IMG/VR virus record: IMGVR_UViG_3300012983_000045
Location: 7,875 to 71,874 of that record
Length of the DNA stretch: 64,000 bases
Direction: 5' to 3' (one strand)
From: a virus
Taxonomy: Duplodnaviria > Caudoviricetes
Part shown: positions 277 to 52,428 of the stretch, piece by piece
Numbering within the stretch: the stretch's first letter is position 1
Layout: each line of letters opens with the position of its first letter
Notes under the pieces: model-generated
Told to the model about the DNA's origin: nothing
What the model saw: the letters and a program-made list of their open reading frames with translations, nothing else
The model's database searches: none
Program-made: the position numbers and the translations under genes

Positions 277-3200
277 TTATTTTCTGCCAAGCTTACGTGC
301 TTCTCGTGCATTGTATTTGTTTGTGTAATCGCAAGCCTTCTTGAGTATCTCTTGAAGTTCTGGCAGAGCTTCTTTATCAACATCCCCATATACAGTAAGA
401 AGAGAATCATAAGAGTTATTATATGTAGTATTTGATGTATTGTTTGCTGTCGGAACTTTGCCCATTTTCATTAAGAATGCACTTGGGTCAATTGCGCCCC
501 ACTTCATAAGATTCTCTGTTAGATTCGCCGGGATTACGCCGTCGCCCTTAGATAATGGAGTAAGATATGCTCCATCTTTGCGAACGAGTAATTCTCCAGA
601 ATGAGTCCAATGAGAACCAGTGTATGGAATACTTGTTGTTCCTTTGGCGTATCCTTTCTTTGCAGAATTCCAACCAGTGTCTTTAAGCTTCTTGAGAAGA
701 GCAGCAGCTTGCGTTTCGTTCAAAGATTTCTGATTAGCATTTACTCCAGAAATACCTTGCTCTCTTGCAAGTTTAACAAGTTCTGCATCGGTTGGTGTTT
801 TGCCGGTTATTCCTGTAATGTACTGTTTGAGATCCTGTTCTTTGGCTTTGTTTATATTACCAGTAATATCACTTGTGGCTTTAGATTCGGTCAGTGTAGT
901 TCCTTTTGTAACTTTTATCGTATTACCAGCGTCAGTTGCTCCTAACACATAATCTTTAAGATCGAATCCATTATATTGTAAAGCAAGTACAACAGCCTTC
1001 TTCTATGCATCAGTTAATTTCTAACCACTTGCCTCTGTCGGTAATCCAGAAACATTTGTATATGCTTTGCCAATATGTAACATATCTGCCTCAGATAAAT
1101 CTCTTCCAAGAACATTATAAAGATATGTCCATAATACATCATTTTTCTTTTGATTTACTGTTCCGGCTTCTGCAAGTTGTCTCGAAGAAATAAACGCCGC
1201 AGCCCCTTGGTTTGTTCCAAATCCATACTATTTCATTGCTTTTAAAATCTTATTGCGAGCGTCTTTAGAAAGGTCGCTTTCTTTAGTAACTTTACTCTTA
1301 TACGGAACACCATCAAGATCTGCGCCTAATTCTCTTAGGTATTGTGCTAAATGAGCCATTTCTGTAGCCGAAGTGTCTTTGCCAGTAAGCTTATAAAGAT
1401 AATTCCACAAATCATCTTTTTCGTGGTCTTTAATAGCTTTTGCATCCGCCACTTTACGAGAAGCAGCATAGTTATACATCTTTGTAAGAGTATCTCTACG
1501 TGCTTTTGCCTATGTAGCGGTTTCTCCACCAGCAGCTTGTTCTGCTTGTTTCTTATCAGTATTCGAATTAAAACTTGTTGTTTGCTGACCATTAGGCTCA
1601 AGTCCGCCCATAATATCTTCGTATGTTGATTTAAATTTTAACAATCCGCTTTCCCACAAACCAAAGGCTCCAAGAACTGCATTAGATGCATCTGTTGTAA
1701 ACCGGATTGTTGCTGTGCTAAGATGTTCAACCACCTAATCATATGTGGTGCTAAATTCACTAAGCACTCCTTCGTTTGTCTAAACCTAAGTAGCCCATGC
1801 TTGAAGTGGTGCGAGAGTTCCGTCCATGTCTGCAATTTGTTTTTCTGCGGTTTTGCCTACTACAGTTCCAGTTTGTTTAATTCTTGCATCGATTACGCTA
1901 TATGCTTTATCATAGTTGTTCTCAAGTCGTTGAAGCATATATGATACAACTTGTTCTTGTGCAGCGGCATTACCCTCAACATATTTGAGTGTATCATCAA
2001 GACTCTTTTGAGCGTCTTTACTCAGACGGTCATAGCCTTCTTGTTGCATATCAATACTATGCTGATAACGTGTATCATCAAGATCCTCACGCTTTTCAGC
2101 TAAGTCGGCTTTAATCCTTGCAAGTCGTGCTTTTGAAGCAGCATCGCCTACGCCTTCCAATGCTGCAGCTTCTGCTTCAAGCTGTTGTATATCTTTTTGT
2201 TTACTTTTAAGTGTTTTATTATAATCATAATCGTAAAATCTTTACATGGTTCGCTACGCCATGCCGTGGATAAACCACGCTCATGTTTTCACATGAGACT
2301 AGACTATATCTTCTAAACATATGATATATTTATATTATATTTTTTCTAAGTTTAATTCATATACAATAATATCTTCCAGATTCTTTTCTTCCCAATATGG
2401 AATACGAATCATTCTTATATTATTTTCCTTGCAGTAATTATTTTTTATCTCATCCCTCTTTTTGCTATTTTGAAAATCTTCTTCTCCGTGAACGGGGTAA
2501 AAATGATATATGCCATCAAATTCAATAACACAATTATAATCTTCTAAGAAGAAGTCGAAACGCAAAACTTTTATATTTTTACAATCTGGAAATACGTGTT
2601 GAGGATCAAATTTAATATTATATTTATGTAGAATATCATGTATTTTTAATTCTCCAACACTTTTATCGTGACAATGACTACATTTCCCGTCGTAATTTTT
2701 TGTATAATTATTTAAACTACACGTAAAAATTTCTCCACAAGACCCACATTTGATTTGTAGATTATTTGTAATTGCGGTCTTATAGTCATGTGGGTTCAAT
2801 AACTTGTTATTGTTTTTGCTCTCAATGGTCTAAATAACCTCTTCTTCCGACAATCTTAATAAATTCGACATATACCCATGTTTACACTAAATACAACCAT
2901 GTCCAAGTTTCATATCTTTTAAGTGGATTTTTTGTTCACCATGTTTCGGACATATATATCTGAACCACGAACCTTCGTTTTGGATTTCGTCCACGGTTGA
3001 TAATGGCGTATATCCGCGTTCTTCACAAAGTTTTCTGAATAATAAAATGGCATTTTCCGCCACAAGACGTTTTCTCTCATCTTTTTTACATTCCTAGCAT
3101 CCATTCTCCCTTAAATATTCTATATTATGTTCTTGAATACCATGAATTGGGCATTTATATTTTAATTTAGCCTTAGTTGTAACACAGTCTTCCTTTTCTG

Positions 3201-6200
3201 AAATCGCTTCAAATCCATATTCGTTGCACAATTGTATAAATTCATTATATATTCGTTCGCAACTATCGTTATGTAATCGCTCCGCTAATTTTTTACCTTT
3301 ACATTTCTCGCAACAGCATTTATCTATCGGTTCTGACATGGCCAAATTATATCGTCCATACCATATGGGGAATATTTCACCACAATAATCACAAATTGCC
3401 TATACTGTTATTTTAGCAGTAGATGGTAAATCTTCTGCGTTTACATAAAATGATTCATCCCAATCGGTGAAAACATAACCTTTACTAACATAATGTTTTC
3501 GCGTATTTGGTCTCCATTTAACCTATATTTTTTGATTCGGAACTAACATTAATCCCTTTCCTCCTTATATAATATCATATATTTAGTCTACCATTTCGAA
3601 CCGCCAATCGCTTGCGGCTCTACTTCCCCACAACAGGGAATAGTCGTTGAACGTAATCCTGTTCGGATTTTCGCTGCTGATTGCCCATATATCCATACAC
3701 TTTTCAAGCGTTCACACTTACGTATATTTCATCGTTATGTTGTAGCAGTATAGCTTTAGGGTGTTCCAGCAATTAGATAGATAAGCGCAATATGATTCAC
3801 GCTTTCTTTTTGCTCAAGGCATCTTTGCGTAAGGAAATTAAATCCTAGAGCGCTTTGTTTTCATTTGTAATCTGTGTCTTGTATACATCAATAATAGATT
3901 TTTTCAGTTGCTCATTTGCAGACACACTCTGCTGAATTGTCTCTATATGTTGCCGAGTTTCTTCTTCGTACTGCTCCATAGATATGACGCCATTCTCATA
4001 TTCTTCATGAAGCTTCTCAAGAGCACCACGTTCATTTGCAATAAGCTGATTGTAATTCTAAATCTCCGCTCCATAGAGCGCAAGTTTTGCATACCCTTCT
4101 TCAGTGATTTCTATTTGATCGCCAGTATCAAAGATTTCTGCATCACTAATAAGACTATTGAGATGCTCAAAGTCAGATACAGTTTCTTTAATAATTCTCT
4201 GAATTCTTTCGAACGGCTCCCATCTGGTCTTACGGATTGCTTCCGCAAGTTCAATGTTAGCAGAAGCGAGAGAGATAGCAGTTTCACGAAGTTGCTGAAG
4301 TTTTGCATAAGCTTCGTTCCACTTTTCTGAACCAGGCTCCCATCCTTCGGCTTGTGCCTATGCCAAGATAGCATCTGCTTGTTTACCAATCTGCTGAATT
4401 TCAAGGTTGTTTGTGTCAATCTGGCCTTGATATGCCTGTCTACGTTGAGCAATAGAAGCATGCATTGTACTAACATCATATGGCATGCCTTTTCTTGTAC
4501 CGAGCTTAGTATAGTAGTCACCAATTGTTTTTAATGTACTAGATGCTTTAGATAGTCTTTCAATAACTTGACCAATTGCATCAATGTCAAGCTGTCGGAT
4601 TTTCTAGCCCATCTCTACAATAGCAGTATTAGTATCCCAAATGCTTGCCTCGAGATCAAATAATTTAGCTTTAGCTTCATGATATTCATCAGTATTTTTC
4701 TTACCAGCTGCCTCTAAATCACTAAGGATCTTGGTGTATTCGGTATATTGACTCGACAAATATTTCTGCTGTTCTTCAAGACGAACACGTTCTTGATTGT
4801 ACAATTGTTTGAATGTTCCGCTATTAGCTCTTGTTCCGGTAGCGGTATAATATGCTTCTTTAGACTGAGTGACTTTCTGAGAGGACTGAACCATATGAAG
4901 AAGTCCACCCCATTTTTTATCAGCTTTATCAAACTATGCTTGTGCAAGTTCAGTCGCCGCATTCTTCGCAGCCTTCTGAAGTTCAACCAGACTTGTCTTA
5001 CTTTGCCAATATTCTTCCGTCAATTTAGCAAGCTGAGTCTGTGCTTCTTGATATTCTTTGCTGTTTACACCATATATCTTAGCAGCATTAGCAAGTTCTT
5101 TTTCATAGTCCTTCATTGCCTGTTCGTTGTATTTGACAATTTCTTTCTGACGTACAATCTGAGACCCCATATTCTTACGGATAACTTCACGGTCTTCACC
5201 ACCACTTGCCTGATAATATTCAAGCATAGCTTTTGTTGATGCTTGGATAGCAGAAGAGCGTTCTGCAAGAGTACCATATTTACTGACTATGTTGTCGAGC
5301 TTCATACCTTGGAGTTCTTTGAGTTGCTTCAGTAAATCATTGTTGGCATCCTTCACATCTTCGGCTTTGTTATACCACTCCATGTAGCTTTGAATGAACG
5401 TCTGCACACCTTCATCATATGACTTGATATCAATGTCGTCACCGTTCTGAATCTTACCAATAATTTCTTTAGCTTGATCGGCACTCACAAGTCCAGATGT
5501 AACAGCCTAAGAGGTAACTTTATCAGCCTATGCCATATATGCATCATACGCACGTTTGTTACGACCCATCAGAGATTTGGTATCTTTTTCATTACCAATC
5601 AGTTTTATGGCTTGGTCTATATATTTATTCTTTGTCCTTGTATCTGTGGCAAGTTCAGATTGAGTAAGGAATCTGTCGAGTTCACGCTGTGTTCTTTCGA
5701 GCGTAATCTCAGCCATATCAAACCAATCTTTTATTGCATCCTGGAAATTCTTGATTGCTTCTTGGATGGCATCTGCTGATTTCTTGGCTGCATCGCTAAC
5801 AGTAGTCGCAGCTTTATTTACATTATTTTCTGTCTTTGATGAGACGCCAGAAGATGGGGTAGTTGCGCCTGGAGTGTTTGGTTTTGGATTCCATCCTCCG
5901 GCAGTCCCCGAATGAGCTGGCATACCATTATATGCCAACGTTCCACTAGCTAATGCACGAGCACCGCCAACAAGATGACCTTTGCCCGAAGCACGACCAG
6001 TAGACATGAGTGCTTTGACTTGGCTATGAGAGAGTATTACATCGCCCTTCTTTAAGTTTTCAACGTGCATACCTCCGGGAAGAATTGAGAACACACCGTT
6101 CCTAATTAATCCTTCTGCCCCGACCTCATTTACAAGAGCCGTTTCGTCTTCTTGTAGAGAAACATTTGTACCCCTAGCATGAGCCGGAAGAGTATTGATA

Positions 6201-9200
6201 ACATTATATGCAGTACCAGATGCATGAGCGTGAAATGTCCCGGCAGCATTACTTGTTGGAAGCCCACTCACATGCGCAGCTACACTAATACTAAATTGTC
6301 TGTTAAGAGCGTTATGTATTGCCAATAGCATATTACCAGTATTCGCCGTAATACTAATTGCCGGATTCAATCCCTGAATATGGCTAACAGCAATATCGGC
6401 TGCTTTAACGGCATTATTCGCGTCGCCATTAATCTTCATCACCGGATGCTTCTTTTCAACAGATGCGGATGCAACATCAGCCGCTTTAACAACATTCTTG
6501 GCATCACCATTTATTTTCATTGTTGGCGGATTTTCTTCAACAGACTGCTTGGTTTGTTCAATGACCTTTGTCGCCTCTTCGTTATCTGCCACAATATCCA
6601 TTTTTGCTTCCGTTATTGCCTACGTGAGGTCATCTATTTGTTCAGCAGCAATTTCAACTTTAATTGGGGCTTCTAATCCTTCAATCTAACTCTTAAGTTC
6701 TGCTAATTCTTGTTTGCCCTATTCGGTATTAAGATCAATATTAAACTCTTTTGCAAGATCTTCGTCTGCTAACGATTTCAGTTCTTCGAGTCCAGATATT
6801 GCTTCGTCTTTTCCTTCGAGGATTGTATTAATGTGTATCTAACGATCATATGTTTTAATTTCGTTATCTGTAGCGAGTGCCTCGTTGGATCCATCCTCCA
6901 TACCTCGTCTTGCTTTTATTAATTGAACTTTCCTTTGTTGCAGTGTTTCATTGTCTAATTGAGAAATGTCGCCACCCAAATTAAACGAAATATCAACATC
7001 CCCGCTTTGTTGTAGTTCTTTTATTTTTTGCCTACCCTGTTCAAGCTATTCATTAAATTCTTCTGCGCCTTGAATAGATGGACCAAATTCTGCATCGGGC
7101 GTCCAATCAATAAGTCCCATCTAAGACAAAACAGTCATTAATGCTTTGCCATATTCCTGACCAAGGCCGAGTTCTTTTAGAATTCCATCGAGTGCCTATT
7201 CAGCACCTTCCAATTGTGTTTTCCCGTCGCCAAATTCAATTGTTCCAAGTTCTTCGTCTGAGAATTGTTTAAGTGTATTAAGATACTTGCTGATGGCCTC
7301 GTTGTAACCATTTATCTTATCACCATCAAATAACTCATGATTGTGCGCAACTTCGGCATATCGGTCTGCCATTTCTTTTGCGTCTTCGCCCTTAAATGTT
7401 GCCATAAGAACAGGCAATTCAACCTATTCACCATTTAATGCTTTTCCGGCATATTCTTGTAATGCTTCTGGTTCTAGTACATCGCCATTCGGAAGGATGG
7501 GTGTCATAACAACGGCTGTCTGATTATCGTCGCTGGTATACGTCTAACTATATAATGTCGCATAATCTCCATCGAAATCAGGATAAAATTCTTGCATCAT
7601 GCGAGGAGTAACTCTGGCTCTGTGATTTAAGTCAACATCTCCAAATTGAGTCCCAGACACGAAATCCGTCATTGCGGCCTCATAACTAGCGCGATCAATT
7701 GTAAAATCTTTCAAATTAATCGTAACACCATATTCATCTGCCATTCTCTGAACTTCGTCCATGATACGTTTCATACCAACTTGATCGCCCATGCTTTCCG
7801 CAGTTGCATATGCCTAACGAAGAGCATCAACTGTATCCGGTAAATTCTTGAATCCTTCAATAAAAGATTGCTGAGAACCAGCAACATAATTATTTGTGGC
7901 GGTATCCAAATTAGTAAGGTCATCTTTTAATCCTTGAATCTAATTACGTTTTTCCGCCAACACATCTTCACTTGCCCCGACAGCTACAAGTTGCGCGTAC
8001 TCAAGCTGTGCGTCTGTCAGCTGTGTTTTGAGATCACTTGCTTTTGCAGATGCTTCTTCAAGAGAGGACACATATGCAATATTTCCGCCGTAGTCATTGA
8101 TGCGTCCCATCATGTCCATAAAGAACTCATCAGACATACCCATTTCAAGAGCGGCCTTTGCAGAATCCGCAAAATCAAGAGAATATCCTGTCAATGCATC
8201 ATATGTTGCCAGTCCTTTAGACACGAGGTCGTTAAGGAAGTTGCTGACTCCAGATGCGTCATCCGTAAAGTATCTCTCAGCTTTCTTATAATTCTGCTCA
8301 AATGTCTTCCAATCAGTTCTGCCAAACGGATCCAGATACGCAGCACGAGTCTTAAAATCATCAGTTCCAATCAGACCCTTATCAAACAGATCTTTTGCTG
8401 TCTTCATGTATCCCTGAGCGGTCTCATAATCAGCGCCTTCATTCTTCGTCTGGTCGGCACGAGCAATAGCAGCAAGACGAGAGAAGTTCTACATCTATTC
8501 AGCATACGTAGCATAGTACTGTGCCTGTTGACGCATATATTCAGCCATTTGTTCATTAAGTTCACGAACCTTGGATGTATCTCCAGCTTTTGATGCGCGG
8601 TCAATTGCTTCTTGAATATCATTCATCTTAGATTCAAAATCTTGATTAATGATTTCATTCTGCTGTTCAGCGAGGCGTTGAAGTTCCATCATATCTACTT
8701 TTACGCCGTCAGCAGTAGAGTAGAAGATAGAAGAGATATCAGCAGCAGAACCAAGCTCACTGAATCCAGTTGTGATTTGCCTCATTGTTTCAGCGGTCAA
8801 TCCGGTTTCAGATGTCATTTCAGACATTGCTGTAGAAATTGTAGAAGCAAGTTGCATTGCGTCAGATACCGCAAGATTCTTGGCTGTATCTTGATAATCC
8901 AGAAGAGAAGAGTAGAGGTCGTTTATTGTTGATTCGTTAGAACGCAACGTCTTTTGTTGATCTTCCGTGAGATTTCCAGATTTACGAAGTTCTGCATTCT
9001 AATCTTGTAAGTTTTTAATTTGCTTCTTTGTAAGGGCTGCAAGCTCTTTGTAATCTTTTACATTTGCTTTGAGACCTTGGGCCTGTTTTAAACTTATTTC
9101 TTCATTCTTTCTAGAAATGGCATCTGCGGTATCTTCGTATGCAAGTGCGAGATTGTCTAATGCGTACTATTGTGGAGTATACGAGTCAGCAGCATCTCTA

Positions 9201-21130: not shown

Positions 21131-21147
21131 TTAATCACCACCTTACA

Positions 21148-31535: not shown

Positions 31536-31551
31536 AGTTCAATCCCTCCTC

Positions 31552-34006: not shown

Positions 34007-34334
34007 GAGAATCACCTACTTTCATTATTTCTGAACCAGCATCCAGTATCAGTTTTCTATATTTCTGAAAATTAAAATTATCATTGTGATATTCCTATAA
34101 CGCCGATTCCAATAAACTCATAGTAATAACAAGTTCTGGCGGTTCTAACAAAATACTATTTAACCCATTCAGTCTATATTGAAGATTACTAAAAGCATTA
34201 TCAACATTTATGTCTGGGTATTCATTTTTAGTCGCTGGGTCTACATAAAGAAGCAGAAAGAAAATAGATTTTCGAATATTAGATTTGGTGTCAGAAATTT
34301 GATTTGATGAATATGAACCGTACTTTGTGTTCAT
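33990..34334 (-). CDS. Virion head-tail region hypothetical protein (one TAG)
   Basis: Track ORF 34095..34334 reads through TAG to TAA at 33992-33990. Confidence 0.65.
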
Positions 34335-34789: not shown

Positions 34790-34809
34790 TGGGTATCACC
34801 TCCGTTTAT

Positions 34810-35373: not shown

Positions 35374-35404
35374 AATTTATCTCCTCTTAATCCTTAATAA
35401 TCAA

Positions 35405-36541: not shown

Positions 36542-36567
36542 TTCGTTTTACCTCCTTTCCTCTAAAA

Positions 36568-37056: not shown

Positions 37057-37139
37057 TTCTCCTTTCTAAAAAAATAAAAGCCGCCTAAGCGACTAATCAT
37101 TGGATATTAACGTGGAGATTTCCAACGCTATATTTTTAA

Positions 37140-40329: not shown

Positions 40330-40351
40330 AACATTATTCCTCCTTTAAATT

Positions 40352-40380
40352 AAAAAGAGACCGCATTTCGCAGTCTCTTA
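40352..40380 (-). terminator. Probable intrinsic terminator
   Basis: Minus strand AAGAGACTGCG-AAA-TGCGGTCTCTT followed by TTT. Confidence 0.45.
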
Positions 40381-40467
40381 ATTAAAATAGAAGAGGGGCG
40401 GTAATTATCCGCCAAATCTTCCTTTGCTGGTTGGGAGCATATGCCCAACATGCATTCAGCAAAATAT

Positions 40468-40641
40468 TTAAAAATGAAGAATGCTCGTAGTTTGAACATC
40501 CTTCATTCCATCCATTGAAAATGTAGTTTTATTGTTTAAAAACATCCAACGATTACCTTCCTTCGGAAGCTCTTGAAATCCAAGCTCACGAAGCTTCTCC
40601 GCGGTTTCCTCATCAGATGTGTAAATAAATTTTTTATCCAT
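40468..40641 (-). CDS. Small hypothetical protein, 57 aa
   Basis: MDKKFIYTSDEETAEKLRELGFQEL...; AAGGTG RBS; below the track length cutoff. Confidence 0.6.
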   Translation of the reverse strand: MDKKFIYTSDEETAEKLRELGFQELPKEGNRWMFLNNKTTFSMDGMKDVQTTSILHF

Positions 40642-40651
40642 TTATATCACC

Positions 40652-42163: not shown

Positions 42164-42178
42164 TTGGCAACACCTCCT

Positions 42179-43948: not shown

Positions 43949-45012
43949 TATATCTCCTCATTCTTGCCAAAGATTTGTTCAAAAATAGCTTCAGAATCCG
44001 TGTCTTCGTCATATTGTGGCTGAGTCACTGTATATTTCTTCATATATTTTTCATATAATCTTGAAAATCCATTTTTCAATCCCATCATCTTTGCAAGATG
44101 TCCTTTGAAAAATGTATCTACAAGAGTAATCATATGATCAGGATCTCGGAATTCTTCGTCGGGTTCTGGAATTGGCTTTCCACCATCCCACTCATCTTCC
44201 CATTTTTCTATTAATTGACCAAATGTTTTTGCTTCGGTCAGAGCATTGGAATTTGTTTGAGAGGGTTTAATCTGCAAAGATGTCATTAAATCCTGTAAAG
44301 TCTTTAAATCATCCTTGGTATCTTTACCGGATTTTTGTTTTTTGTCTATATTTAACTCTGTGTGACAAATGTTTTTATACAACACCTCTTGCGCTTTATT
44401 CTCACAAGGATACCTTTTAATCCAATCTTGATATTCATTCTCCAACCAAATCAAATCAGTAGGAGAGTAGTCTTTACCAAATCTCCTTTTTGCTTGTTTT
44501 AACATGCGGGAATTTTCGTTGATTTGTTCATCATCTTCCTCAAGCGATTCGTCAAAAATCGAATCTGCCCAAGTTAATCCTCGATATTGAGGTAGAGACT
44601 TGACACACGTAATGAGATAAGCATATGCAGTCTGACGATTTTTCTCACCGACTTGTTCAATTGCACTATTCATAACAGATTTATATAAATCGTCTATAAA
44701 TGGTAAATCCATCATTTGAAATACTTTTTTTGTTTTCTCTCTATTGTCGATATAACTGTTTGTAGCTTTATCATAATCACAAGCATCATTAATTAAACAT
44801 TTTTTACAGATTGGAAACAATCCACTTGCGTACCTTTTATCAGAATAAAATGAATCGGCACTTAAAAACTCGTTGCACTTATGGCAATAGCAAAGTTTCC
44901 CATCTAATATCCGATTGTAATCTTTAGCAAGTGAATTATATGCTTGTCTAACATTTGCTACACCAGCTTTCTTGACTTCATCTTCGGTCAATGCAGCTTT
45001 AAGCCGAGCCAT
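43948..45012 (-). CDS. Zn-finger protein upstream of terminase (possible small terminase, YonG-like position)
   Basis: Intact 354-aa ORF with CxxC...CKKC; its stop overlaps the terminase start. Confidence 0.6.
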   Translation of the reverse strand: MARLKAALTEDEVKKAGVANVRQAYNSLAKDYNRILDGKLCYCHKCNEFLSADSFYSDKRYASGLFPICKKCLINDACDYDKATNSYIDNREKTKKVFQMMDLPFIDDLYKSVMNSAIEQVGEKNRQTAYAYLITCVKSLPQYRGLTWADSIFDESLEEDDEQINENSRMLKQAKRRFGKDYSPTDLIWLENEYQDWIKRYPCENKAQEVLYKNICHTELNIDKKQKSGKDTKDDLKTLQDLMTSLQIKPSQTNSNALTEAKTFGQLIEKWEDEWDGGKPIPEPDEEFRDPDHMITLVDTFFKGHLAKMMGLKNGFSRLYEKYMKKYTVTQPQYDEDTDSEAIFEQIFGKNEEI

Positions 45013-45040
45013 ATAGTCACCATCCTTTTACTCATACAAA

Positions 45041-46291
45041 TTAGGCACTCTTCATTTCCTGAAGAATGCCCTCTAAATATTCCACATATTCATAATTTAT
45101 ATTAATTGACAACTGATTTTCTTCAAACCATTTATCAAATTCTCCACAATCGATTCTATATATAAAATCTAAAAAATCATACGGTGTAAATTTAGTGTAT
45201 CCGTATTCATCATGAAATAACTTATGGATATCCTTCTGAACACAAGCACCCAAGCCATAAATATTATGTAATAAATGAGTCTCCATTCTTAAAGTAGAAA
45301 ACTCATCGGTACTATAATTCATAACTTTATCTTTAACGGCGATCCCTGTATTATCAAAAACCTCATCTACAATATCTCTAAAAGGCACAGTATGATGTAT
45401 ATTATCAAAATCACCACCAGATATTACACAATGATATCCACAAAACTCCATAGATTCTTTCTGCCAATCTTTAGTCTCGGAACGAAGTTCGGTATAGGTT
45501 TGATTTATACCACCTTTCCATCTACCGTTTTCTTCTCCATTTAATGGATAAATATGACGCGGATTCTTGTCTCCGGCCCATTTTCCCCTCATTCTTTCAC
45601 TCATTTGCATACATTGCTCTTTTGAACGTTTCTTTCCCAGCCACCAAGACGTATGAGTTTTATAATACTCTTTTCGAACCTCTGATAAATGTTGTTTTTG
45701 TTTATCTGACATATGTCTTCCACGATTACCGTCTCCAATTCTTTTATTTCTAATATCCAACATACGACGCACTTCGTCATAAGTTTTATTTCCTTGTATT
45801 CCAAGATAACTAGCTCTACATTCGATGGCTCGAATTGTTCTGCCTTGAAGAAAATTATCTCTCAATTCTTCTCCTGTATAGTCGTTATAATACCGACGCA
45901 TTATTTCATCCTCTTCTTTTGTCCATGGAATATTCGGTTCGTAATCCTCTGGTAAAAAATTCTTAAATTTGGGATTACATTCTCTACAAATATGTCTCAG
46001 TCCATCTTTACAAGTTTTATCTACTGGGAAAAACCTATAAGAATTAGGTAATGATCTACCACATTGTCTGCAAACTCTTTCGCCGTCATATTCTATTTTG
46101 CCAGTACTAAACCTTGCTTTTAATTGATTATTCTTTTCTTTATTTTTCTGCGATTCACATTTTTTACATAAACTACTATGACCGTCTCGATTATTTTTAC
46201 TAAAATATTTATCAGTATTTGGAAAAGTTTCTCCGCAGCATGTACATGTTCTAAATTCAGCATCTTTTGGAGTTCCATGTGTATAACCCAT
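45041..46291 (-). CDS. HNH-type homing endonuclease with Zn fingers and NUMOD3-like repeats
   Basis: CxxC repeats, GRHMSDKQKQHLSE, C-terminal HCVISG...IHHTVPF...HKLFH; likely start at the ATG at 46291. Confidence 0.7.
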   Translation of the reverse strand: MGYTHGTPKDAEFRTCTCCGETFPNTDKYFSKNNRDGHSSLCKKCESQKNKEKNNQLKARFSTGKIEYDGERVCRQCGRSLPNSYRFFPVDKTCKDGLRHICRECNPKFKNFLPEDYEPNIPWTKEEDEIMRRYYNDYTGEELRDNFLQGRTIRAIECRASYLGIQGNKTYDEVRRMLDIRNKRIGDGNRGRHMSDKQKQHLSEVRKEYYKTHTSWWLGKKRSKEQCMQMSERMRGKWAGDKNPRHIYPLNGEENGRWKGGINQTYTELRSETKDWQKESMEFCGYHCVISGGDFDNIHHTVPFRDIVDEVFDNTGIAVKDKVMNYSTDEFSTLRMETHLLHNIYGLGACVQKDIHKLFHDEYGYTKFTPYDFLDFIYRIDCGEFDKWFEENQLSININYEYVEYLEGILQEMKSA

Positions 46292-46499
46292 GATTTCACC
46301 TGTCTTTCTCACCCGCAAACAACAAAAAAAGAACGGGAGAGTGCCGCAGGTGTAAAGCACTCACACCAAGGTAGCTACTCCTCGATGTTCCCGTTCAAAG
46401 CAAAAAAAATAAGCACTCCGAAGAGTGTCATAAATCATATTTCAGGAATCGAACCAGAAGCAGAAGAGCAGAAGTTCCTCCGCGCACCAACATAGATAA

Positions 46500-46610
46500 T
46501 TATTTAACAGCAATTACAACCCAGAGCATTAACGACATAAGAGCCGTACTGCCAAGAATGGCAATAACCTCTTGGGCTACATCTTTGGTGGTTTCCTTGA
46601 GAAAATCCAT
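46500..46610 (-). CDS. Small membrane peptide, 36 aa
   Basis: MDFLKETTKDVAQEVIAILGSTALMSLMLWVVIAVK; GGAGGTG RBS. Confidence 0.45.
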   Translation of the reverse strand: MDFLKETTKDVAQEVIAILGSTALMSLMLWVVIAVK

Positions 46611-46693
46611 GTCAATCACCTCCTATATAATAAACAGCGTATAACCATTAACTTAGCTGTGTCATGCTTTTGCACAAGTTTTATGGGCATCGA

Positions 46694-46918
46694 TTATCTT
46701 AAAACATCATTTATGATGTCTGCCGTTTTGCATAATTCCTCTCTGGAAGTTATATCAAATCCAACATCTTTTATAAGCGCATGAGCAAGATACATACAGA
46801 AATGCTGAAGAAATTCATCTTGCTCATCTGTTGTTTCTTCAGCAGAAGTATTAATTACATTCATTACTTCATTATATTTATCTACACATTCTCTTGTGTT
46901 TTTATAAAAATCTTTCAT
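46694..46918 (-). CDS. Hypothetical protein
   Basis: Intact 74-aa ORF with AAAGGA RBS. Confidence 0.55.
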   Translation of the reverse strand: MKDFYKNTRECVDKYNEVMNVINTSAEETTDEQDEFLQHFCMYLAHALIKDVGFDITSREELCKTADIINDVLR

Positions 46919-46932
46919 AAATATTTTCCTTT

Positions 46933-47802
46933 TTAATACAAATAATCTAAATCGTCTATTTCTAGATTATCAGCGTCTATTTGATTCATATAGTCATATA
47001 CATCAAAAAAGTCAGTGATTCCTAATTCTTTGCGCTTTCTATTCACATATTCCTCCAACTGTTCCGGTGTATTATTCAATTTTCCATATTCATAATGAAA
47101 CGATCCAGAGATACAAGGATTATGATGATTTCTACATAAACATGCACCATTTGTAACATCAAATCTAGTTTCGGGTCTGGAAGCGAATGGATAAATGTGA
47201 TGAAATTCAATATCCTATGTAGAACCACACACTATACATGTGAAGTTATCCTTTTCGGCTACACCTTTTTTCCAATTTTGATATAACCCACTGCTCCGTA
47301 ATCTTTTAATTATTGATGTTTTGCTTTCCTCTTCTCCAAATTCATTTATTTCTTTAATATGCCTATCTTTTCCTAGGCAAGACGTTCTTAACCCAGATTT
47401 AAGTTTTCCCGCAAGAACAGAAACTTTTTGTCCACAATTGTATTCACATACCCAATACGTATTTTTCTTTTCTTTTGATTTCGCTTCATCAAAATATAAA
47501 GCCGTTAAATTACCAAATTCTCTTCCGGTTAAATCTTCTCTTGTTTGCCCACCATGCCCACCAGTGCATTTAAGACATTGTATAATATGATTTGGGTTTT
47601 GAGTTATCTAATCTATTCTTCTATTTTCACTTTCATGAATGCCATTCGGACATTTAAAATAAAATTTTGTTTTTGTTCCAGATGCAACTTCTGATGGTAA
47701 CAAATCATTCTTTTCATAATCCCAAAGTTCAAGAATATCATGACGGTTATTTGTAACACACCATTCTTCAAATGTCTATTTACAAGTATATCTATTTCCC
47801 AT
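46933..47802 (-). CDS. HNH endonuclease with Zn-ribbon domain, TAG-recoded, 289 aa
   Basis: ATG at 47802 after GGAGG; three TAGs; CIVCG...EFHHIYPF...NGACLC..HH; absent from the track. Confidence 0.7.
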
Positions 47803-47910
47803 ATTGTTTACCTCCTACAGTAAATTCTCCCACTATATATAAACGCAACTGGGGAGGTAGGAGACTCCCCAATATAATGGTGGCCAAACCATTATACTTT
47901 TGCGTTATAG

Positions 47911-48001
47911 CAAGCCCGGTGCGATTCGAACGCACATCAGCGGCTTCAACGCGCTTACAGATTTAGAGTCTGCTGTTTTCAATCCATTAAACTACGGGCC
48001 T
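47911..48001 (-). tRNA. Amber-suppressor tRNA (anticodon CUA), class II with long variable arm
   Basis: Cloverleaf: acceptor AGGCCCG/CGGGCTT, G73, D stem GTTT/AAAC, anticodon arm GCAGA-CT-CTA-AA-TCTGT, 21-nt variable region, T arm GTGCG-TTCGAAT-CGCAC; CCA not encoded. Confidence 0.9.
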
Positions 48002-48035
48002 ATAATAAAGGCGCAACCGAAGCCACGCCAATAAA

Positions 48036-48514
48036 TCAATCTTTCTTATCCGTTGTAAACATCACACCGTCTTCTTCGCCGATTACAGCACGGGCAACGT
48101 CTTCCATCAATGTGGAAACAAGACCATGCGGATCATGCAGATTGTCGTTCCAGAACTGGACGACTTCTGGTTTGAACACAACATAATTAATCGGATTCAC
48201 CATAATTCCCTCAATGGTAGTTGCATAAGAAAATGCCGGATTGCCTTCGAATGCCGACGAATTATATCAACTTTCTTAGGCTCAGTATTTGCCGGGATTA
48301 CTTCAATAAACACAGAAACATTTCCAAAATCTTTTTGTACCGGAAGAATCTCATCAAGAGCAGCAGCTTTAATTTCATTTTCTACATACAGCTTAATGTG
48401 AAGTTCGTCCTCGTCAAATGCTACCTTAATATCAGGGTCCGCACCAAACAGTGCCTCGACCTGTCTATAGTACGTAATCCATGGTGGAGCTAATTTTACT
48501 TCTTTGTTTTCCAT
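48036..48514 (-). pseudogene. Conserved phage hypothetical gene with an apparent 1-nt frameshift near 48254
   Basis: After KVDIIR the protein-like text continues in another frame (AFEGNPAFSYATTIEG...FTTDKKD*) to TGA at 48038-48036. Could be an assembly error. Confidence 0.5.
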
Positions 48515-48553
48515 AACCTTTTACCTCATTTTTAAAAATAGGAGGGGAGCCAA

Positions 48554-49171
48554 TTACTCCTCTACATAAACAAAGTGTGTACCGATGTTTGGTACTACGT
48601 TAGAGATCTTTCTATATTTGGTGATTGCTTTTGCGACTTCATCAGTTAAAGGAATAGTTCCTCTATATGAGAACTGACGAATCCCATTCTCATCACATTC
48701 ACAATAACAAAATCCTTTACGGTCATCATCCCACTCAATAAAAGATTTTAATTTAAGTTCAGTGTCTTCCTCTGGTTCTTCTTCATAATCAGGATCAAAA
48801 GTAAACAATACTGCTTTAAAATTCTGCACAAAATCATTTCTTTTTGCATCAATAACAAATTTAGAATTCACAGTATCCTCAACATAACACTTACAATCAA
48901 CCGCAATATAGAGACCTGTATTAGTATTAAACGCCTGTTCAAGATACAATTTTTCTTCTTTTCCATCAATGGTTAAGATATATTCCTTATTATATGCGAA
49001 TTTGTCAACCTCCAAGAGGAACGGTTCATAATCACCATTTAGAATAAAATCCAAAATAACCTCTTGAAGCGTTTCATTATCTGCAATCAGAGCAACTTCA
49101 CCATCTTCGGCGATAACATCCATCAACTCTGATTCTAATTCATACACTTCATTATAATAAATCATATGCAT
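48554..49171 (-). CDS. Acidic hypothetical protein
   Basis: Intact 205-aa ORF with RBS. Confidence 0.7.
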   Translation of the reverse strand: MHMIYYNEVYELESELMDVIAEDGEVALIADNETLQEVILDFILNGDYEPFLLEVDKFAYNKEYILTIDGKEEKLYLEQAFNTNTGLYIAVDCKCYVEDTVNSKFVIDAKRNDFVQNFKAVLFTFDPDYEEEPEEDTELKLKSFIEWDDDRKGFCYCECDENGIRQFSYRGTIPLTDEVAKAITKYRKISNVVPNIGTHFVYVEE

Positions 49172-49183
49172 TCCTTTTCTTCC

Positions 49184-50383
49184 TTAAAACTTTATATCAT
49201 ATATACAATCAAGACCATCCTTATTAGTTACGACACAAACGGTTTGCTCCGCACCCCCAAGCAATCTATTATCAGCAGCATACGTATCCATACCGGATAA
49301 ACATCCGGTCTGCACAACTTTAATCCCAGATTGTGTATCATACTTATTTGTGTGTTTATGTCCAGTCAAAACAATTGATGGTTTATCTCCAAACATACGC
49401 TGCATAGTTTCTCCGAGTGTGGCAAATGGATCTTTGTCGCCATGGACGGCCATTATTAATCTTGCTCCAATTCTGAAAATTACGGTACCATGATGGTATC
49501 TGTTTTCTTCAAGATGAACACAATCATCATTCTGAAATTTCCCCTTCAAGAAAGGAATAATAAGATTATCCAAATTTTCATGAGAAATTTCCTCATTTTT
49601 ATTTGGGTTAATTCTACTATGATTTCCGGGAGCAACGAATACACTCACATGATTAAATTTGGTACGTAATTGCTCAATAAAATAACAAATGTGTTCCATT
49701 ACCATAAGAAATTGATCAATAACATCCTGATTTGCCTCTAGCCTAAGAGCATTATGAATTAAGCCAGAAATTGCCTCACTGATAACAACATATGCACCAT
49801 TTGCTACATGGCGTTCTTTAATCTCAAAGATCTTATCCAAATACTTATCCAGCCTCTCCTTGAGAACATCTTCGTTATACTCATTCCACCAATTCTTTGT
49901 AACAATACCTCCATGAATATCATAAAGTGGGATAAGAAGAGCAGACTCACTTTTAGGATTATCATGTTGTTTCGGGGTATATGTTAAAGGAATTTTGCTT
50001 GTACTTTCAGAAATAGTTCGTTGAATTTGTTCAAGAAAAGACTCTTTACGAGCCTCCTCTCTAAGAAGTCTACGGTACTCATTCCGTTCATCGCGTACTT
50101 TCACCTTTTCTTTTTCTAGTTCACGACGAATCTCAATTAACTCTTCCGCTGTACCGTTATCAGCATTGCAATTAAACTCATTCCTAAACTGCTTTAATAA
50201 ACTATATTTTTTTCTATATGCAGATTCTGTCCAATACTCAGATGGATCACGTAACTCCTTATTTAATATATCTGCAAGTTCTGGCCATGTCATGTCTAAC
50301 AAACCAGATTCTTTTGCATCGCCAAGACGGATTATATATTTCAATTCAGATTCACCCGGAAGTCGGGCGGCAGAGAAGGACAT
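49184..50383 (-). CDS. Calcineurin-like metallophosphoesterase with N-terminal coiled coil (YonJ-like)
   Basis: LYDIHGG (DxH), APGNHSR (GNH), AVHGD, TGHKH motifs. Confidence 0.8.
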   Translation of the reverse strand: MSFSAARLPGESELKYIIRLGDAKESGLLDMTWPELADILNKELRDPSEYWTESAYRKKYSLLKQFRNEFNCNADNGTAEELIEIRRELEKEKVKVRDERNEYRRLLREEARKESFLEQIQRTISESTSKIPLTYTPKQHDNPKSESALLIPLYDIHGGIVTKNWWNEYNEDVLKERLDKYLDKIFEIKERHVANGAYVVISEAISGLIHNALRLEANQDVIDQFLMVMEHICYFIEQLRTKFNHVSVFVAPGNHSRINPNKNEEISHENLDNLIIPFLKGKFQNDDCVHLEENRYHHGTVIFRIGARLIMAVHGDKDPFATLGETMQRMFGDKPSIVLTGHKHTNKYDTQSGIKVVQTGCLSGMDTYAADNRLLGGAEQTVCVVTNKDGLDCIYDIKF

Positions 50384-50384
50384 A

Positions 50385-50630
50385 TTATTCCTCCTCCAAC
50401 TCTTTTGTTAAATCCTCTTCTGTCTTCATCGCAATAGATAACTCAATCGTCATACCCTTGAACGGAGAAAGGCATTTATCTACGGAAATTGTTGTCTCCT
50501 CTTTATTGGAGTTTGTATAATAAATTTCCTTACCATCCGTGGAGAGATCTCCCTTAATTGCAAATCTTTTATTAATCTTCTCATTATAAGTATAATTCTT
50601 TGCCATAATCCTTTTCCCCCTATTAATCAT
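50385..50630 (-). CDS. YonK-like small protein
   Basis: Intact ORF; size, composition and position before the YonJ-like gene match SPbeta gene order. Confidence 0.5.
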   Translation of the reverse strand: MINRGKRIMAKNYTYNEKINKRFAIKGDLSTDGKEIYYTNSNKEETTISVDKCLSPFKGMTIELSIAMKTEEDLTKELEEE

Positions 50631-51241
50631 AAAACACTATCTAAATCTATATCTACACCAATAATCTTATCAACAACACCAAGTTCCTTTGCCCGATCAG
50701 CATACATATATAACTCAGTATCATAGTATTGGTCGTAAAATTCTTCCGTCATCTTAGTGCGAGAGAGTACAAATTCCTTTGTTCTCTGGTCTCCACTTTC
50801 AAAGAATGCAACAGTATCTTTTACTTTTTTTGCACTATTGGAAATGCTAACACTCCCGTCATGCTGTAAAAATACAGAGTTCTTGAAAGCAATCCTGTCA
50901 TGACAAGCAAGAAATACATGATAACAAGCACTTGCCACCAATGATAATCCAATACCAATAACTGGTGTTTTACTTGCAACAATAACATCAACAACATTCT
51001 GAGAAACAAATGTATCTCCACCAACACTGCTCATATAAATCTTAATTGGTTTCCTAGCTTCTACCGGAAGATTGATATCTTCCTTATTCCATTTAAGAAT
51101 GTAAAGAACAATGTCTTCCACCATATTGTCACTAACTTCATCATTAAAAACAAGAATTCTATCTTCAAGATATTCTCTATACAATTCCTCATATGCGTTC
51201 GCTTGGTTATTTAATCCTGTAGGTATAATAAATCCATCCAT
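50627..51241 (-). CDS. clpP: ClpP-family serine protease
   Basis: DRILVF, IKIYMSSVGG, VASA (Ser), LQHDG (His), MYADRAKELGVVDKI. Confidence 0.85.
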   Translation of the reverse strand: MDGFIIPTGLNNQANAYEELYREYLEDRILVFNDEVSDNMVEDIVLYILKWNKEDINLPVEARKPIKIYMSSVGGDTFVSQNVVDVIVASKTPVIGIGLSLVASACYHVFLACHDRIAFKNSVFLQHDGSVSISNSAKKVKDTVAFFESGDQRTKEFVLSRTKMTEEFYDQYYDTELYMYADRAKELGVVDKIIGVDIDLDSVL

Positions 51242-51243
51242 GA

Positions 51244-51558
51244 TTACACCTCCGCAAACTTCTCGATTTTTTTAAACCGCTCCTCGATTGCAGCATCAAC
51301 TCTGCGTTGAACCTCTCGCTCAATCATTTCATCCATATCAGGCTTAGAAACCGATTTATTCTTTTCGTTTTCCTCCATAATCCGGTTGAAATCATTTTCG
51401 AATTTTTCATCACTCAGAAAAACAAAAACGCTACGCTTCCCGTCTGGGTCGGCGTGGTCTTGTTTAATATCAATAATTCTGTTTCCTTCCGCAAGCAACT
51501 GGCGAGCAATTCTTGCCTTTCTAACAATTTTAGCTTTTACGTCTTGTGTATTCTGCAT
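51244..51558 (-). CDS. Hypothetical protein (DUF5659-like N-terminus)
   Basis: IARQLLAEGNRIIDIK.......SVFVF; likely start ATG at 51558. Confidence 0.6.
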   Translation of the reverse strand: MQNTQDVKAKIVRKARIARQLLAEGNRIIDIKQDHADPDGKRSVFVFLSDEKFENDFNRIMEENEKNKSVSKPDMDEMIEREVQRRVDAAIEERFKKIEKFAEV

Positions 51559-51600
51559 TCCCTTTTTCTCCTTATTTTTCATAAAATAAAAAGAAGCCAT

Positions 51601-52428
51601 TTAGGCTTCTTGAAATAAATTCGCAAACAATCTGCTTGTTGCACTTCTTACGTCCTCTTCCAACGTAATTGTCGCGAACAACGGATTCCCCTTAAATGTG
51701 TCGCACATGCGAAGTAATGGTGAATTAACACTTCCGTTTGCGGCTTGACGGTAATCTCCATCAAAAACAATCTTACTTCCTTCGCCAACACGGGTCCCTA
51801 TCATTCGTATCTATTTTTCGGACAAATCCTCGGACTCATCAATAACCATCCAAGTATCTTGATAAGAAGTACCTTTCATATATGTAGGAATATTGAAATC
51901 CAAAATCCCCTGTTGCTTTAACTGCTCAACTTCCCAGTCTTTTCCGTCAAGCTGTTGGACAAGTGGCAATGTCCACACTTGATTTTTCTGGGTAAAATCT
52001 CCGGGCAAAAAACCAAGTTCTCGACCTTCGCCCATTGGTTCTCTCACTCCAAGAATGTGAGACTGCCAGCCCTTTTCTTTGACGGCAAATAGTCCCATCT
52101 GCATACACAGATAACTCTTGCCACTGCCAAATTCTCCAAGTATTGCACATACAGTAATATTCGGATTATTCAACATATCAAGAGCACATCTCTGTAAAGA
52201 GTTCTTTCCTTTAATAAATTTAGACGGCGGAAGTTTCAAAGCAACAAACTTTTCACCATCCCAACGCATTTCACGTTCGGTTCCATCATCTGTATTTCGA
52301 ATAATTAGATATTCGTTACAGTTCCAAATAGCAGTATTAATGTACGACATATACTCATTTATCTGAGATGTCGTACCTTCCACCATTTTATAGCCCTTGT
52401 AGTTATTTGTATCAATCAAGCATTTCAC
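51601..52428 (-). CDS. phoH: PhoH-family ATPase, 275 aa, single TAG
   Basis: GEFGSGKS, MKGTS, IDESEDLSEK*IRMIGTRVGEGSKIVFDGD; joins track ORFs 51811..52428 and 51601..51804. Confidence 0.85.

What the first reader, a model, noticed from the sequence alone, without database searches (positions are those of the whole stretch)
277..52428. TAG reassigned to Gln, confined mostly to late genes
Seen: TAG is the only interrupting stop in about 25 genes and falls on conserved Gln positions: terminase WF*K (43787) and LK*ANE (43631), PhoH SEK*IR (51811), recombinase VI*EIVG (27013). True ends are TAA/TGA. Helicase, ParB, RNA polymerase, HU, ClpP and phosphoesterase genes are TAG-free. Known: code 15 is described in gut phages and proposed as a late-gene switch, so the phenomenon itself is not new. 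Here it co-occurs with a phage RNA polymerase, introns and an atypical suppressor. No release factor or synthetase gene is in this window.
Basis: partly seen in the sequence, partly recalled or inferred. Interest (0 to 1): 0.8.

Follow-up and report, generated by a model that had tools for sequence, protein, structure and literature searches.

The report
Gut phage reads TAG as glutamine
This is part of an SPbeta-like phage from ruminant gut that reads the stop codon TAG as glutamine, almost only in its virion genes; this kind of recoding is already published for other gut phages, so this is a well-supported new example, not a new principle.

Summary
Reading TAG as sense raises cover by ORFs of at least 100 aa from 54% to 89%. 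It opens a 5,777-aa tail gene with 125 TAGs and a 589-aa terminase with 14.

TAG means Gln:
- At the 14 terminase sites, 35 standard-code relatives give Q a log-odds of +35 nats; the next residue, E, scores -16.
- Two close standard-code relatives carry CAA/CAG at 12 and 13 of the 14 sites.
- The PhoH and recombinase TAGs fall on Q motifs of solved structures.
- No gene ends in TAG, against 16% of genes in standard-code relatives.

The bias is real. Genes below the suppressor tRNA hold 233 TAGs in 16,618 codons; genes above it hold 4 in 4,302, and only the PhoH one is solid. Eight recoded relatives show the same split.

The 92-nt tRNA(CUA) sits exactly on this boundary. It belongs to a family of suppressors with a long variable arm that phAss-1 also carries. 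Three complete recoded relatives encode no release factor and no GlnRS.

Code 15 with late-gene bias is published (Borges, Peters, Mgcod, phAss-1), so this is a new member of a known kind. Less usual here: the SPbeta-like lineage, code status scattered among close relatives, and the suppressor's shape.

The parts
277..47892 (-). TAG-containing block of virion, packaging and tail genes plus several homing-endonuclease genes. With the 7.9 kb of contig to its left it holds 233 in-frame TAGs in 16,618 codons.
3797..21130 (-). 5,777-aa tape-measure or tail ORF with 125 in-frame TAGs. It has a PhageMin_Tail domain and is similar to SPbeta YomI.
42179..43948 (-). Large terminase, 589 aa, with 14 TAGs, which is 64% of its Gln-type codons. 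It is 42-44% identical to SPbeta YonF by tblastn.
26872..27921 (-). YomM-like tyrosine recombinase with 4 TAGs. The TAG at 27013-27015 lies on the Q of the box II motif.
47911..48001 (-). Suppressor tRNA with anticodon CUA and a 21-nt variable arm. Acceptor features are A1:U72, G2.U71, G3:C70 and G73. It lies exactly between the TAG-poor and TAG-rich blocks, and the next ORF starts 18 nt after it.
48010..48029 (-). Terminator-like GC hairpin followed by a T run, directly upstream of the suppressor tRNA.
48197..63170 (-). TAG-poor block holding YonJ-type phosphoesterase, ClpP, PhoH, tRNA-Met, HU, the RNAP-like gene, HNH, ParB and helicase. It has 4 TAGs in 4,302 codons, and only the PhoH one is solid.
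51601..52428 (-). PhoH-like ATPase with a single TAG at 51811-51813. The Pfam PhoH match runs through it.
54589..57276 (-). 895-aa TAG-free protein, a candidate YonO-like RNA polymerase. The evidence is weak: an EDFDSD motif, E = 4e-4 to YonO, and synteny with the HU gene.
58098..58103 (-). TAG followed directly by TAA at the end of a small ORF in the early block. This is probably a real TAG stop with a back-up stop.
43948..45012 (-). YonG-like gene inside the late block without any TAG (0 of 17 Gln-type codons, P = 0.004). Homologues in other recoded relatives do carry TAG.

Best explanation
The contig is roughly 40% of the genome of an SPbeta-like siphovirus from ruminant gut that uses genetic code 15.

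Shown:
- TAG is a Gln codon in about 29 genes and ends no gene.
- The phage encodes a tRNA with anticodon CUA.
- TAG codons are nearly confined to genes downstream of that tRNA.
- Relatives with 65-88% identical terminases use either code, swapping TAG with CAA/CAG at the same sites.

Inferred:
- A host GlnRS charges the tRNA. Its weak A1:U72 pair, G3:C70, G10 and G73 fit what is known of GlnRS identity in E. coli. No synthetase or release factor is encoded in this contig or in three complete recoded relatives. A Lachnospiraceae MAG whose bin holds a related phage contig has GlnRS and no detected GatB.
- Genes that must be translated in the unmodified cell (RNAP-like, HU, ClpP, YonJ, ParB, helicase) cannot tolerate TAG.
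- Genes translated once the suppressor is abundant accumulate TAG through C-to-T changes at CAG/CAA-type codons.
- This ties virion production to expression of the tRNA.
- The 125 TAGs in one ORF imply per-codon read-through in the high nineties of percent. RF1 must therefore be strongly outcompeted or disabled late in infection.
For: Coding structure:
- Cover by ORFs of at least 100 aa is 54% under table 11 and 89% with TAG as sense; TGA as sense gives only 64%.

Identity of the residue:
- In 120 homologues, 13 of the 14 terminase TAG columns are Q-dominant or Q-rich, and 6 are invariant Q.
- Against 35 distinct terminases that have no in-frame stop, Q scores +35.1 nats and the next residue, E, -15.6.
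- L007, a prophage in a 1.3-Mb contig that translates by table 11, has CAA/CAG at 12 of the 14 sites. L009 has them at 13 of 14.
- The PhoH TAG aligns to a Q in PDB 3b85.
- The recombinase TAG aligns to the Q of the IQELLGH motif in 4a8e, 5jjv and 5hxy.

Stop usage:
- 0 of 67 ORFs end in TAG, against 33 of 212 in standard-code gut relatives.

Partition:
- 233 TAGs in 16,618 codons against 4 in 4,302, p = 1e-11.
- In eight recoded relatives the RNAP-like gene has 0 TAG of 48 Gln-type codons, ClpP 0 of 43 and YonJ 1 of 52, while TerL has 78 of 206.

Suppressor tRNA:
- It scores 55.8 bits against Rfam tRNA.
- An identical copy sits in recoded relative L011. Related long-arm suppressors occur in L015, L022, the complete relative G003 and phAss-1.
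- The variable-arm helix is kept through compensatory changes.

No phage-encoded helpers, and a GlnRS-bearing candidate host:
- Three complete recoded relatives of 161-202 kb have no RF or GlnRS/GluRS domain.
- MAG G001 has GlnRS at 719 bits and no GatB match.

Lineage:
- Terminase, YonG, YonJ, YonN, YomM and YomI homologues lie in SPbeta order.
Against: - No peptide or aminoacylation data exist, so Gln rests on comparative inference.
- The suppressor has a long variable arm like tRNA-Ser, Leu or Tyr. SerRS reads such an arm together with G73, so some Ser charging cannot be excluded.
- Similarity searches do not place the window's tRNA with tRNA-Gln; the best match is a phage tRNA-Trp at 0.72 identity.
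- The host is unknown. The GlnRS argument uses a MAG that holds a standard-code relative on a contig that may have been binned in by mistake.
- The split does not follow SPbeta's known transcription units. YonJ, which in SPbeta belongs to the YonO-transcribed late operon (PMC5467207), is TAG-free here, and PhoH in the TAG-poor block has one TAG.
- Two recoded complete relatives, G002 and G004, show no detectable tRNA(CUA).
Confidence: 0.88

Rival explanations
1. TAG is decoded as Ser, Leu or Tyr, because the suppressor has the long variable arm of class II tRNAs and a host class II-tRNA synthetase charges it.
For: The tRNA has a 21-nt variable arm with a 4-5 bp stem and G73, as bacterial tRNA-Ser does. 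A related C. difficile phage has a 91-nt tRNA-Ser at a similar place.
Against: - S, L and Y all score below E, that is below -15.6 nats, while Q scores +35.
- Terminase TAG sites are invariant Q columns. None is Ser-, Tyr- or Leu-dominant among close relatives.
- Close relatives swap TAG only with CAA/CAG.
- The D arm and anticodon arm of L015, L022 and phAss-1 resemble host tRNA-Gln.
- One relative, L048, uses a 73-nt suppressor that starts UGGGGC and has G73.
Confidence: 0.03
2. The late-gene bias is an evolved gate. TAG codons are kept in virion and packaging genes to block their translation in lysogens or early in infection, and expression of the tRNA is the switch.
For: - The tRNA lies exactly at the boundary, behind a terminator-like hairpin.
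- The split is conserved in eight relatives.
- The most abundant virion proteins keep exactly one TAG: MCP 1 of 9 Gln-type codons, YonD-like 1 of 18, and the 29234..30073 protein (possibly the tail tube) 1 of 9.
- The model is published for other clades (10.1101/2021.08.26.457843).
Against: - Constraint plus drift predicts the same pattern.
- TAG status of single genes flips between close relatives: YonG has 0 TAG here and 4-5 in L011 and L015; the portal has 4 here and 0 in L014 and L043.
- Some late genes have none.
- No expression data exist.
Confidence: 0.4
3. TAG acts as a graded attenuator. Incomplete read-through sets protein stoichiometry, with many TAGs in low-copy proteins and few in high-copy ones.
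For: TAG density is 2.2-2.4% of codons in the tape measure and terminase. It is 0.15-0.36% in MCP, the YonD-like protein and the 29234..30073 protein. Terminase is the most TAG-rich gene in all relatives.
Against: - The tape measure's share of TAG among Gln-type codons (31%) equals the block average (28%), so its count simply follows its length.
- Depletion in highly expressed genes is also expected from plain selection against costly suppression.
Confidence: 0.15
4. The TAGs are damage: a decaying prophage, or sequencing or assembly error.
For: None, beyond the fragmented look under table 11.
Against: - Only TAG interrupts genes; TAA and TGA never do.
- Sites are shared with independent contigs from other samples.
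- A matching suppressor tRNA is present.
- Recoded relatives with direct terminal repeats are rated complete.
Confidence: 0.01

Closest known systems
Code-15 (TAG to Gln) gut phages: crAss-like, Lak, Garnet, Topaz and other clades (Borges et al., 10.1101/2021.08.26.457843; proteomic proof in Peters et al., PMC9523058; block-wise codes in Mgcod, 10.1101/2022.06.29.495998)
   Same: - TAG reads as Gln.
- The phage encodes a tRNA(CUA).
- Early genes are compatible with the standard code while structural genes are recoded.
- Standard-code close relatives exist.
- Usually no phage synthetase is present.
   Different: - The lineage differs: SPbeta-like, with a candidate YonO-type RNA polymerase.
- Here a tyrosine recombinase carries 4 TAGs, whereas Garnet and Topaz integrases avoid them. 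It is the YomM-type gene of the tail region, not a known prophage integrase.
- No RF2 was found, in contrast to some Lak and Agate phages.
phAss-1 / proposed Phassvirus, 'Caudoviricetes code 15 clade' (PMC10607447; OQ749652)
   Same: - Large siphoviruses of gut Clostridia with TAG = Gln in terminase, tape measure and portal.
- No synthetase.
- An 88-nt long-arm tRNA(CUA) whose D arm, anticodon arm and variable arm match those of relatives L015 and L022.
   Different: - It is only distantly related: terminase 23% identical.
- phAss-1 comes from human gut, this phage from ruminant gut.
- phAss-1 also has a 72-nt suppressor and 36 tRNAs.
- The paper does not mention the long arm.
Bacillus phage SPbeta and Spbetavirus relatives (NC_001884; YonO in PMC5467207)
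   Same: Gene order runs YonN(HU), YonJ, YonG, YonF(terminase), portal, YonD, YonB ... YomM, YomI. The terminase is 42-44% identical.
   Different: - SPbeta and its Bacillus, Staphylococcus and Clostridioides relatives use the standard code.
- In SPbeta, YonO transcribes the late operon from upstream of yonK. Here the code boundary lies further downstream, at the tRNA.
   Same: A CUA anticodon together with a weak 1:72 pair, G2, G3:C70 and G73 favours GlnRS. A class II body can be turned towards Gln identity.
   Different: Those are laboratory mutants. Here the long-arm form is a natural, conserved family. Its charging has not been tested.

Membership tests
Genetic code 15 (TAG = Gln) phage | In-frame TAG, and only TAG, interrupts conserved genes; reading it as sense restores full-length homologues | tested here: met
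   The terminase is restored to 589 aa, matching full-length homologues. The Pfam PhoH match spans the TAG.
Genetic code 15 (TAG = Gln) phage | TAG positions align with Gln in homologues from standard-code genomes | tested here: met
   Q scores +35.1 nats against -15.6 for the next residue. L007 and L009 have CAA/CAG at 12 and 13 of 14 sites. Q motifs of PDB entries match.
Genetic code 15 (TAG = Gln) phage | TAG is not used as a terminator | tested here: met
   0 of 67 ORFs end in TAG, against 16% in standard-code relatives. One small early ORF has a TAG-TAA tandem.
Genetic code 15 (TAG = Gln) phage | The phage encodes a suppressor tRNA with anticodon CUA | tested here: met
   ARAGORN and Rfam (55.8 bits) find it at 47911-48001.
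Genetic code 15 (TAG = Gln) phage | Peptides with Gln at TAG, or Gln charging of the suppressor | not testable with these tools
   No proteomic or biochemical data. An RNA-library contig covers part of the terminase, but that does not prove transcription.
Block-wise dual coding (early genes standard-compatible, late genes recoded) | TAG sense codons are significantly depleted in the early or replication block relative to the structural block | tested here: met
   Fisher p = 1e-11. The split recurs in eight relatives. Whether the blocks are truly early and late was not tested.
SPbeta-like phages | YonF-type terminase and a conserved yon/yom gene order | tested here: met
   The terminase is 42-44% identical over more than 90% of its length. 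YonN, J, G, F, M, I and V homologues are present. Relatives carry the Pfam families YonG_N, YonJ_N, YonD_N and YonB.
SPbeta-like phages | YonO-type single-chain RNA polymerase | tested here: inconclusive
   BLASTP gives E = 4e-4 over 397 aa at 19% identity. An EDFDSD motif is present. The protein falls in phrog_8308 of unknown function and has no PDB match.
tRNA-Gln (identity of the suppressor) | Class I body with a short variable loop; weak 1:72 pair, G2:C71, G3:C70, G10 and G73 (E. coli rules, from my own knowledge) | tested here: inconclusive
   Acceptor features are mostly present: A1:U72, G2.U71, G3:C70 and G73. The variable arm is 21 nt, and the nearest tRNAs by identity are not Gln for the window's copy.

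The most novel reading that the evidence does not exclude
A family of natural amber suppressors with a class II-like long variable arm is nevertheless charged with Gln by host GlnRS. The family includes the window's tRNA and those of L011, G003, L015, L022, L014 and phAss-1. It moves between phages of GlnRS-bearing Clostridia, sometimes next to an HNH endonuclease gene. That lets close relatives flip between code 11 and code 15 repeatedly: at least 3-5 label changes on the terminase tree, with one standard-looking relative, L046, already carrying a suppressor. The extra arm would then be a new identity or protection element for a Gln-accepting tRNA.
Probability: 0.3. Interest if true: 0.7.

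Novelty: new member of a known kind. Interest (0 to 1): 0.45.

Why it matters
- **Extends code 15 to a new lineage.** The recoding now reaches an SPbeta-like lineage with a well-studied laboratory model. Relatives at 65-88% terminase identity use either code, which makes a good natural series for asking how a code change starts and spreads.
- **Sharpens open questions.** One ORF holds 125 TAGs, and neither this contig nor three complete recoded relatives encode a release factor or synthetase. How is RF1 beaten, and which enzyme charges a long-arm tRNA(CUA)?
- **Practical consequence.** These contigs are badly mis-annotated under table 11. PHROGs files pieces of this terminase under three families of unknown function.

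Tried and rejected
- **Megablast against phage records.** 20 kb of the window gave no match, so no near-identical deposited genome was seen.
- **Rfam.** Scans at gathering and permissive thresholds found only the two tRNAs. No theta or HDV-like ribozyme follows the suppressor, and the next ORF starts 18 nt after it, which leaves no room.
- **Ancestry of the window's suppressor.** Identity to 45 host and about 50 phage tRNAs, with the variable arm removed, was inconclusive: top hits lie at 0.69-0.72 across Trp, Gly, Ser and Tyr.
- **RNAP-like protein.** No PDB match.
- **GTDB genome contigs.** The scan gave only two relatives. One sits in a MAG labelled Absconditabacterales and is probably a mis-binned phage contig. 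Host assignment stays open.
- **Suppressors in G002 and G004.** No tRNA(CUA) was recognised in these complete recoded relatives. Several odd tRNA-like hits there were not resolved.
- **Laying public runs.** Only contigs were available, so nothing can be said on transcription, RNA ends or editing. The RNA-library contig over 43433-43630 had 4 differences, and none of the three that are listed lies in a TAG codon.
- **Sigma-70 promoter scan around the tRNA.** It found fewer sites than shuffled sequence gives.
- **Careful terminase tree.** It did not finish. Only the quick tree is reported.
- **TGA or TAA reassignment.** TGA as sense gives far less cover than TAG as sense. TAA as sense raises cover only by fusing frames, with a longest ORF of 1,014 aa.
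Full report
**What is there**

The window is bases 7875-71874 of a single 71,874-bp virus contig. Nearly all genes lie on the minus strand. Under table 11 the left three quarters break into short ORFs. With TAG read as sense they merge:
- a 5,777-aa ORF at 3797..21130 with 125 TAGs
- a 589-aa terminase at 42179..43948 with 14 TAGs
- a 503-aa portal with 4 TAGs
- about 26 further ORFs

Cover by ORFs of at least 100 aa rises from 54% to 89%. Reading TGA as sense gives 64%. Reading TAA as sense only fuses frames. All 67 ORFs picked under TAG = sense end in TAA (46) or TGA (21).

**What phage it is**

The terminase is 42-44% identical by tblastn, over more than 90% of its length, to YonF of Bacillus phage SPbeta. 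It also matches SPbeta-like phages of Staphylococcus, Mammaliicoccus, Lysinibacillus and Clostridioides. Gene order follows SPbeta, with homologues of YonV, YonN (HU), YonJ, YonG, YonF, YomM and YomI. Closer metagenomic relatives carry the Pfam families YonG_N, YonJ_N, YonD_N and YonB.

The 895-aa TAG-free protein upstream of the HU gene is only weakly like YonO: E = 4e-4, an EDFDSD motif, and no PDB or named PHROG match. I call it a candidate RNA polymerase.

Complete relatives are 161-202 kb, and an ORF runs off the right end of the window. The contig is therefore roughly 40% of a genome. Public runs that hold 26-41% of its sampled words are bovine, goat and other animal gut metagenomes from 12 studies.

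**Which residue TAG encodes**

I read every TAG as X and compared with relatives whose genes have no in-frame stop.
- Among 120 database homologues, 13 of the 14 terminase TAG columns are Q-dominant or Q-rich, and 6 are invariant Q.
- Some database proteins come from recoded contigs already translated with Q: P0017 translates only 'with_TAG=Q'. So I repeated the test at the DNA level. L007 is a prophage in a 1.3-Mb contig that translates by table 11; it has CAA/CAG at 12 of the 14 sites. L009 has them at 13.
- Over 35 distinct stop-free terminases, Q scores +35.1 nats and the next residue, E, -15.6. As a control, the window's own Ser, Leu, Tyr, Glu and Lys codons align mainly with their own residues.
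- The PhoH TAG aligns to the Q of 'TPAQMKM' in PDB 3b85.
- The recombinase TAG at 27013 aligns to the Q of the I/V-Q-E-x-L-G-H motif of three Xer structures.

**The split between blocks**
- Minus-strand genes of at least 80 aa at or below 47892 hold 233 TAGs in 16,618 codons, which is 28% of Gln-type codons.
- Those at or above 48197 hold 4 TAGs in 4,302 codons, or 3%. Fisher p = 1e-11, and p = 2e-9 without the giant ORF.
- Out-of-frame TAG density differs little (16.3 against 11.5 per 1,000), so base composition does not explain the split.

Of the four early TAGs, only the PhoH one is solid. Two belong to ORF 58098..58565: one lies upstream of a likelier ATG start, and the other is a terminal TAG followed by TAA. 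The fourth is in a spurious antisense ORF.

The split recurs in eight recoded relatives. Counts are TAG out of all Gln-type codons (TAG + CAA + CAG):

| Gene | TAG / Gln-type codons |
|---|---|
| RNAP-like | 0 / 48 |
| ClpP | 0 / 43 |
| YonJ | 1 / 52 |
| Terminase | 78 / 206 |
| Portal | 21 / 181 |
| YonD | 14 / 95 |

The split is not absolute. The YonG-like gene (0 of 17, P = 0.004), ORF 45041..46360 and a GIY-YIG endonuclease gene inside the late block have no TAG, while YonG homologues in L011 and L015 have 4-5. The most abundant virion proteins have one TAG each. Terminase and ORF 33314..34015 are enriched.

**The machinery**

A 92-nt tRNA with anticodon CUA lies at 47911-48001 and scores 55.8 bits against Rfam tRNA. 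It sits exactly at the boundary. A terminator-like hairpin at 48029-48010 precedes it, and the first TAG-bearing ORF starts 18 nt after it.

It has a 21-nt variable arm with a stem, plus A1:U72, G2.U71, G3:C70 and G73. The same tRNA, 100% identical, is in recoded relative L011. Other long-arm CUA tRNAs are in L014, L015, L022 and the complete 185-kb relative G003. The published phAss-1 genome has one as well, annotated there simply as tRNA-Sup-CTA of 88 nt. An alignment of seven members keeps the variable-arm helix through compensatory changes. The D arm and anticodon arm of L015, L022 and phAss-1 resemble host tRNA-Gln, but the window's copy cannot be placed. One relative, L048, has an ordinary 73-nt suppressor.

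No release factor or synthetase domain was found in this contig or in three complete recoded relatives. A Lachnospiraceae MAG that holds a standard-code relative encodes GlnRS and no detectable GatB. This fits charging by host GlnRS, but the host link is weak.

**Evolution**

Of 40 distinct terminases, 10 are recoded. On a quick maximum-likelihood tree the label needs at least 5 changes, 3 of them forced by well-supported branches. The genomes are mosaic. L011 shares ClpP, portal, MCP and tRNA with the window at 97-100% identity, yet its terminase is 74% identical. Gene exchange between recoded and standard phages is therefore as likely as repeated gain.

L046 carries a CUA tRNA while 11 of its 12 ORFs have no TAG and none ends in TAG. 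This looks like an early stage of the route that Borges et al. proposed.

**How it most likely works**

Shown: TAG = Gln, no TAG stops, a phage tRNA(CUA), and a conserved split.

Inferred:
- Host GlnRS charges the tRNA.
- Genes needed before the tRNA accumulates are kept TAG-free by selection.
- Genes read later drift from CAG/CAA-type codons to TAG.
- Virion production therefore depends on the tRNA.

With 125 TAGs in one ORF, a per-codon read-through of 0.95 would give a yield of about 0.2%, and 0.99 about 28% (my arithmetic). RF1 must be largely out of play. How that happens is unknown.

Whether the pattern is an evolved gate or a by-product cannot be settled here. The boundary does not coincide with SPbeta's YonO operon start upstream of yonK (PMC5467207), because the YonJ homologue lies on the TAG-free side.

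**Comparison with what is known**

TAG-to-Gln recoding of late genes in gut phages, the suppressor tRNAs, the standard-code relatives and the usual lack of a synthetase are all published (10.1101/2021.08.26.457843; PMC9523058; 10.1101/2022.06.29.495998; PMC10607447; PMC10879173). NCBI taxonomy even has a 'Caudoviricetes code 15 clade'. phAss-1 is only distantly related, with a terminase 23% identical.

This is therefore a new member of a known kind. Full-text searches found no paper linking code-15 phages with long-variable-arm suppressors. That side feature was already noted by this scan on the same window and remains the most novel element.

Noticed in passing
whole window; relatives L011, L014, L015, L022, L028, L031, L039, L040, L043, L048: TGA makes up 31% of stop codons in the window (21 of 67) and 27% in ten recoded relatives. 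In 14 standard-code gut relatives it is 9% of all stops, or 11% of TAA + TGA. Unexplained; shared ancestry may inflate the difference.
   Followed up: partly
L046:4061-4147 and the whole locus: A relative with a TAG-free terminase carries an 87-nt tRNA(CUA). 11 of its 12 ORFs have no TAG and none ends in TAG. Only the small ORF just after the tRNA has 2 TAGs. This may be an incipient stage of recoding.
   Followed up: partly
window 46660-48163: The suppressor tRNA is followed by an HNH endonuclease gene with 5 TAGs here, and by HNH homologues in L011 and L015. One bovine-gut contig joins 46660 to 48163, skipping the tRNA and the HNH gene; the evidence is weak, with only 30 letters on the shorter side. 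This could be a mobile tRNA-endonuclease cassette.
   Followed up: no
window 35405-43948 against L011: Strong mosaicism. L011 shares ClpP, portal, MCP, several tail genes and the tRNA with the window at 97-100% identity, but its terminase is 74% identical, its YonG 66% and its YonD 74%.
   Followed up: partly
window 39145-40329, 2335-3549, 32223-33167, 46933-47892, 57359-58135: There are many homing-endonuclease genes (GIY-YIG, HNH, LAGLIDADG). Some carry TAG codons (2335..3549 has 5, 46933..47892 has 5, 32223..33167 has 2). Others have none (39145..40329, 57359..58135). The group I introns proposed by earlier notes were not tested; Rfam reported none at gathering score.
   Followed up: no
window 26433-27200 and 26872-27921: Two long TAG-sense ORFs in different frames overlap by about 330 bases next to the recombinase gene. 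The cause, whether a frameshift, an intron or a chance ORF, was not resolved.
   Followed up: no
L095 (G002:C1:12000-16000): The complete recoded relative G002 has three 82-92-nt Rfam tRNA hits of 31-36 bits that ARAGORN does not call and that have no obvious CUA anticodon. They may be aberrant or intron-bearing tRNAs.
   Followed up: partly
L012 (JAZQNA010000029.1): A 125-kb contig with a standard-code relative of this terminase is binned in a MAG labelled Candidatus Absconditabacterales. It is probably a phage contig binned by mistake.
   Followed up: no
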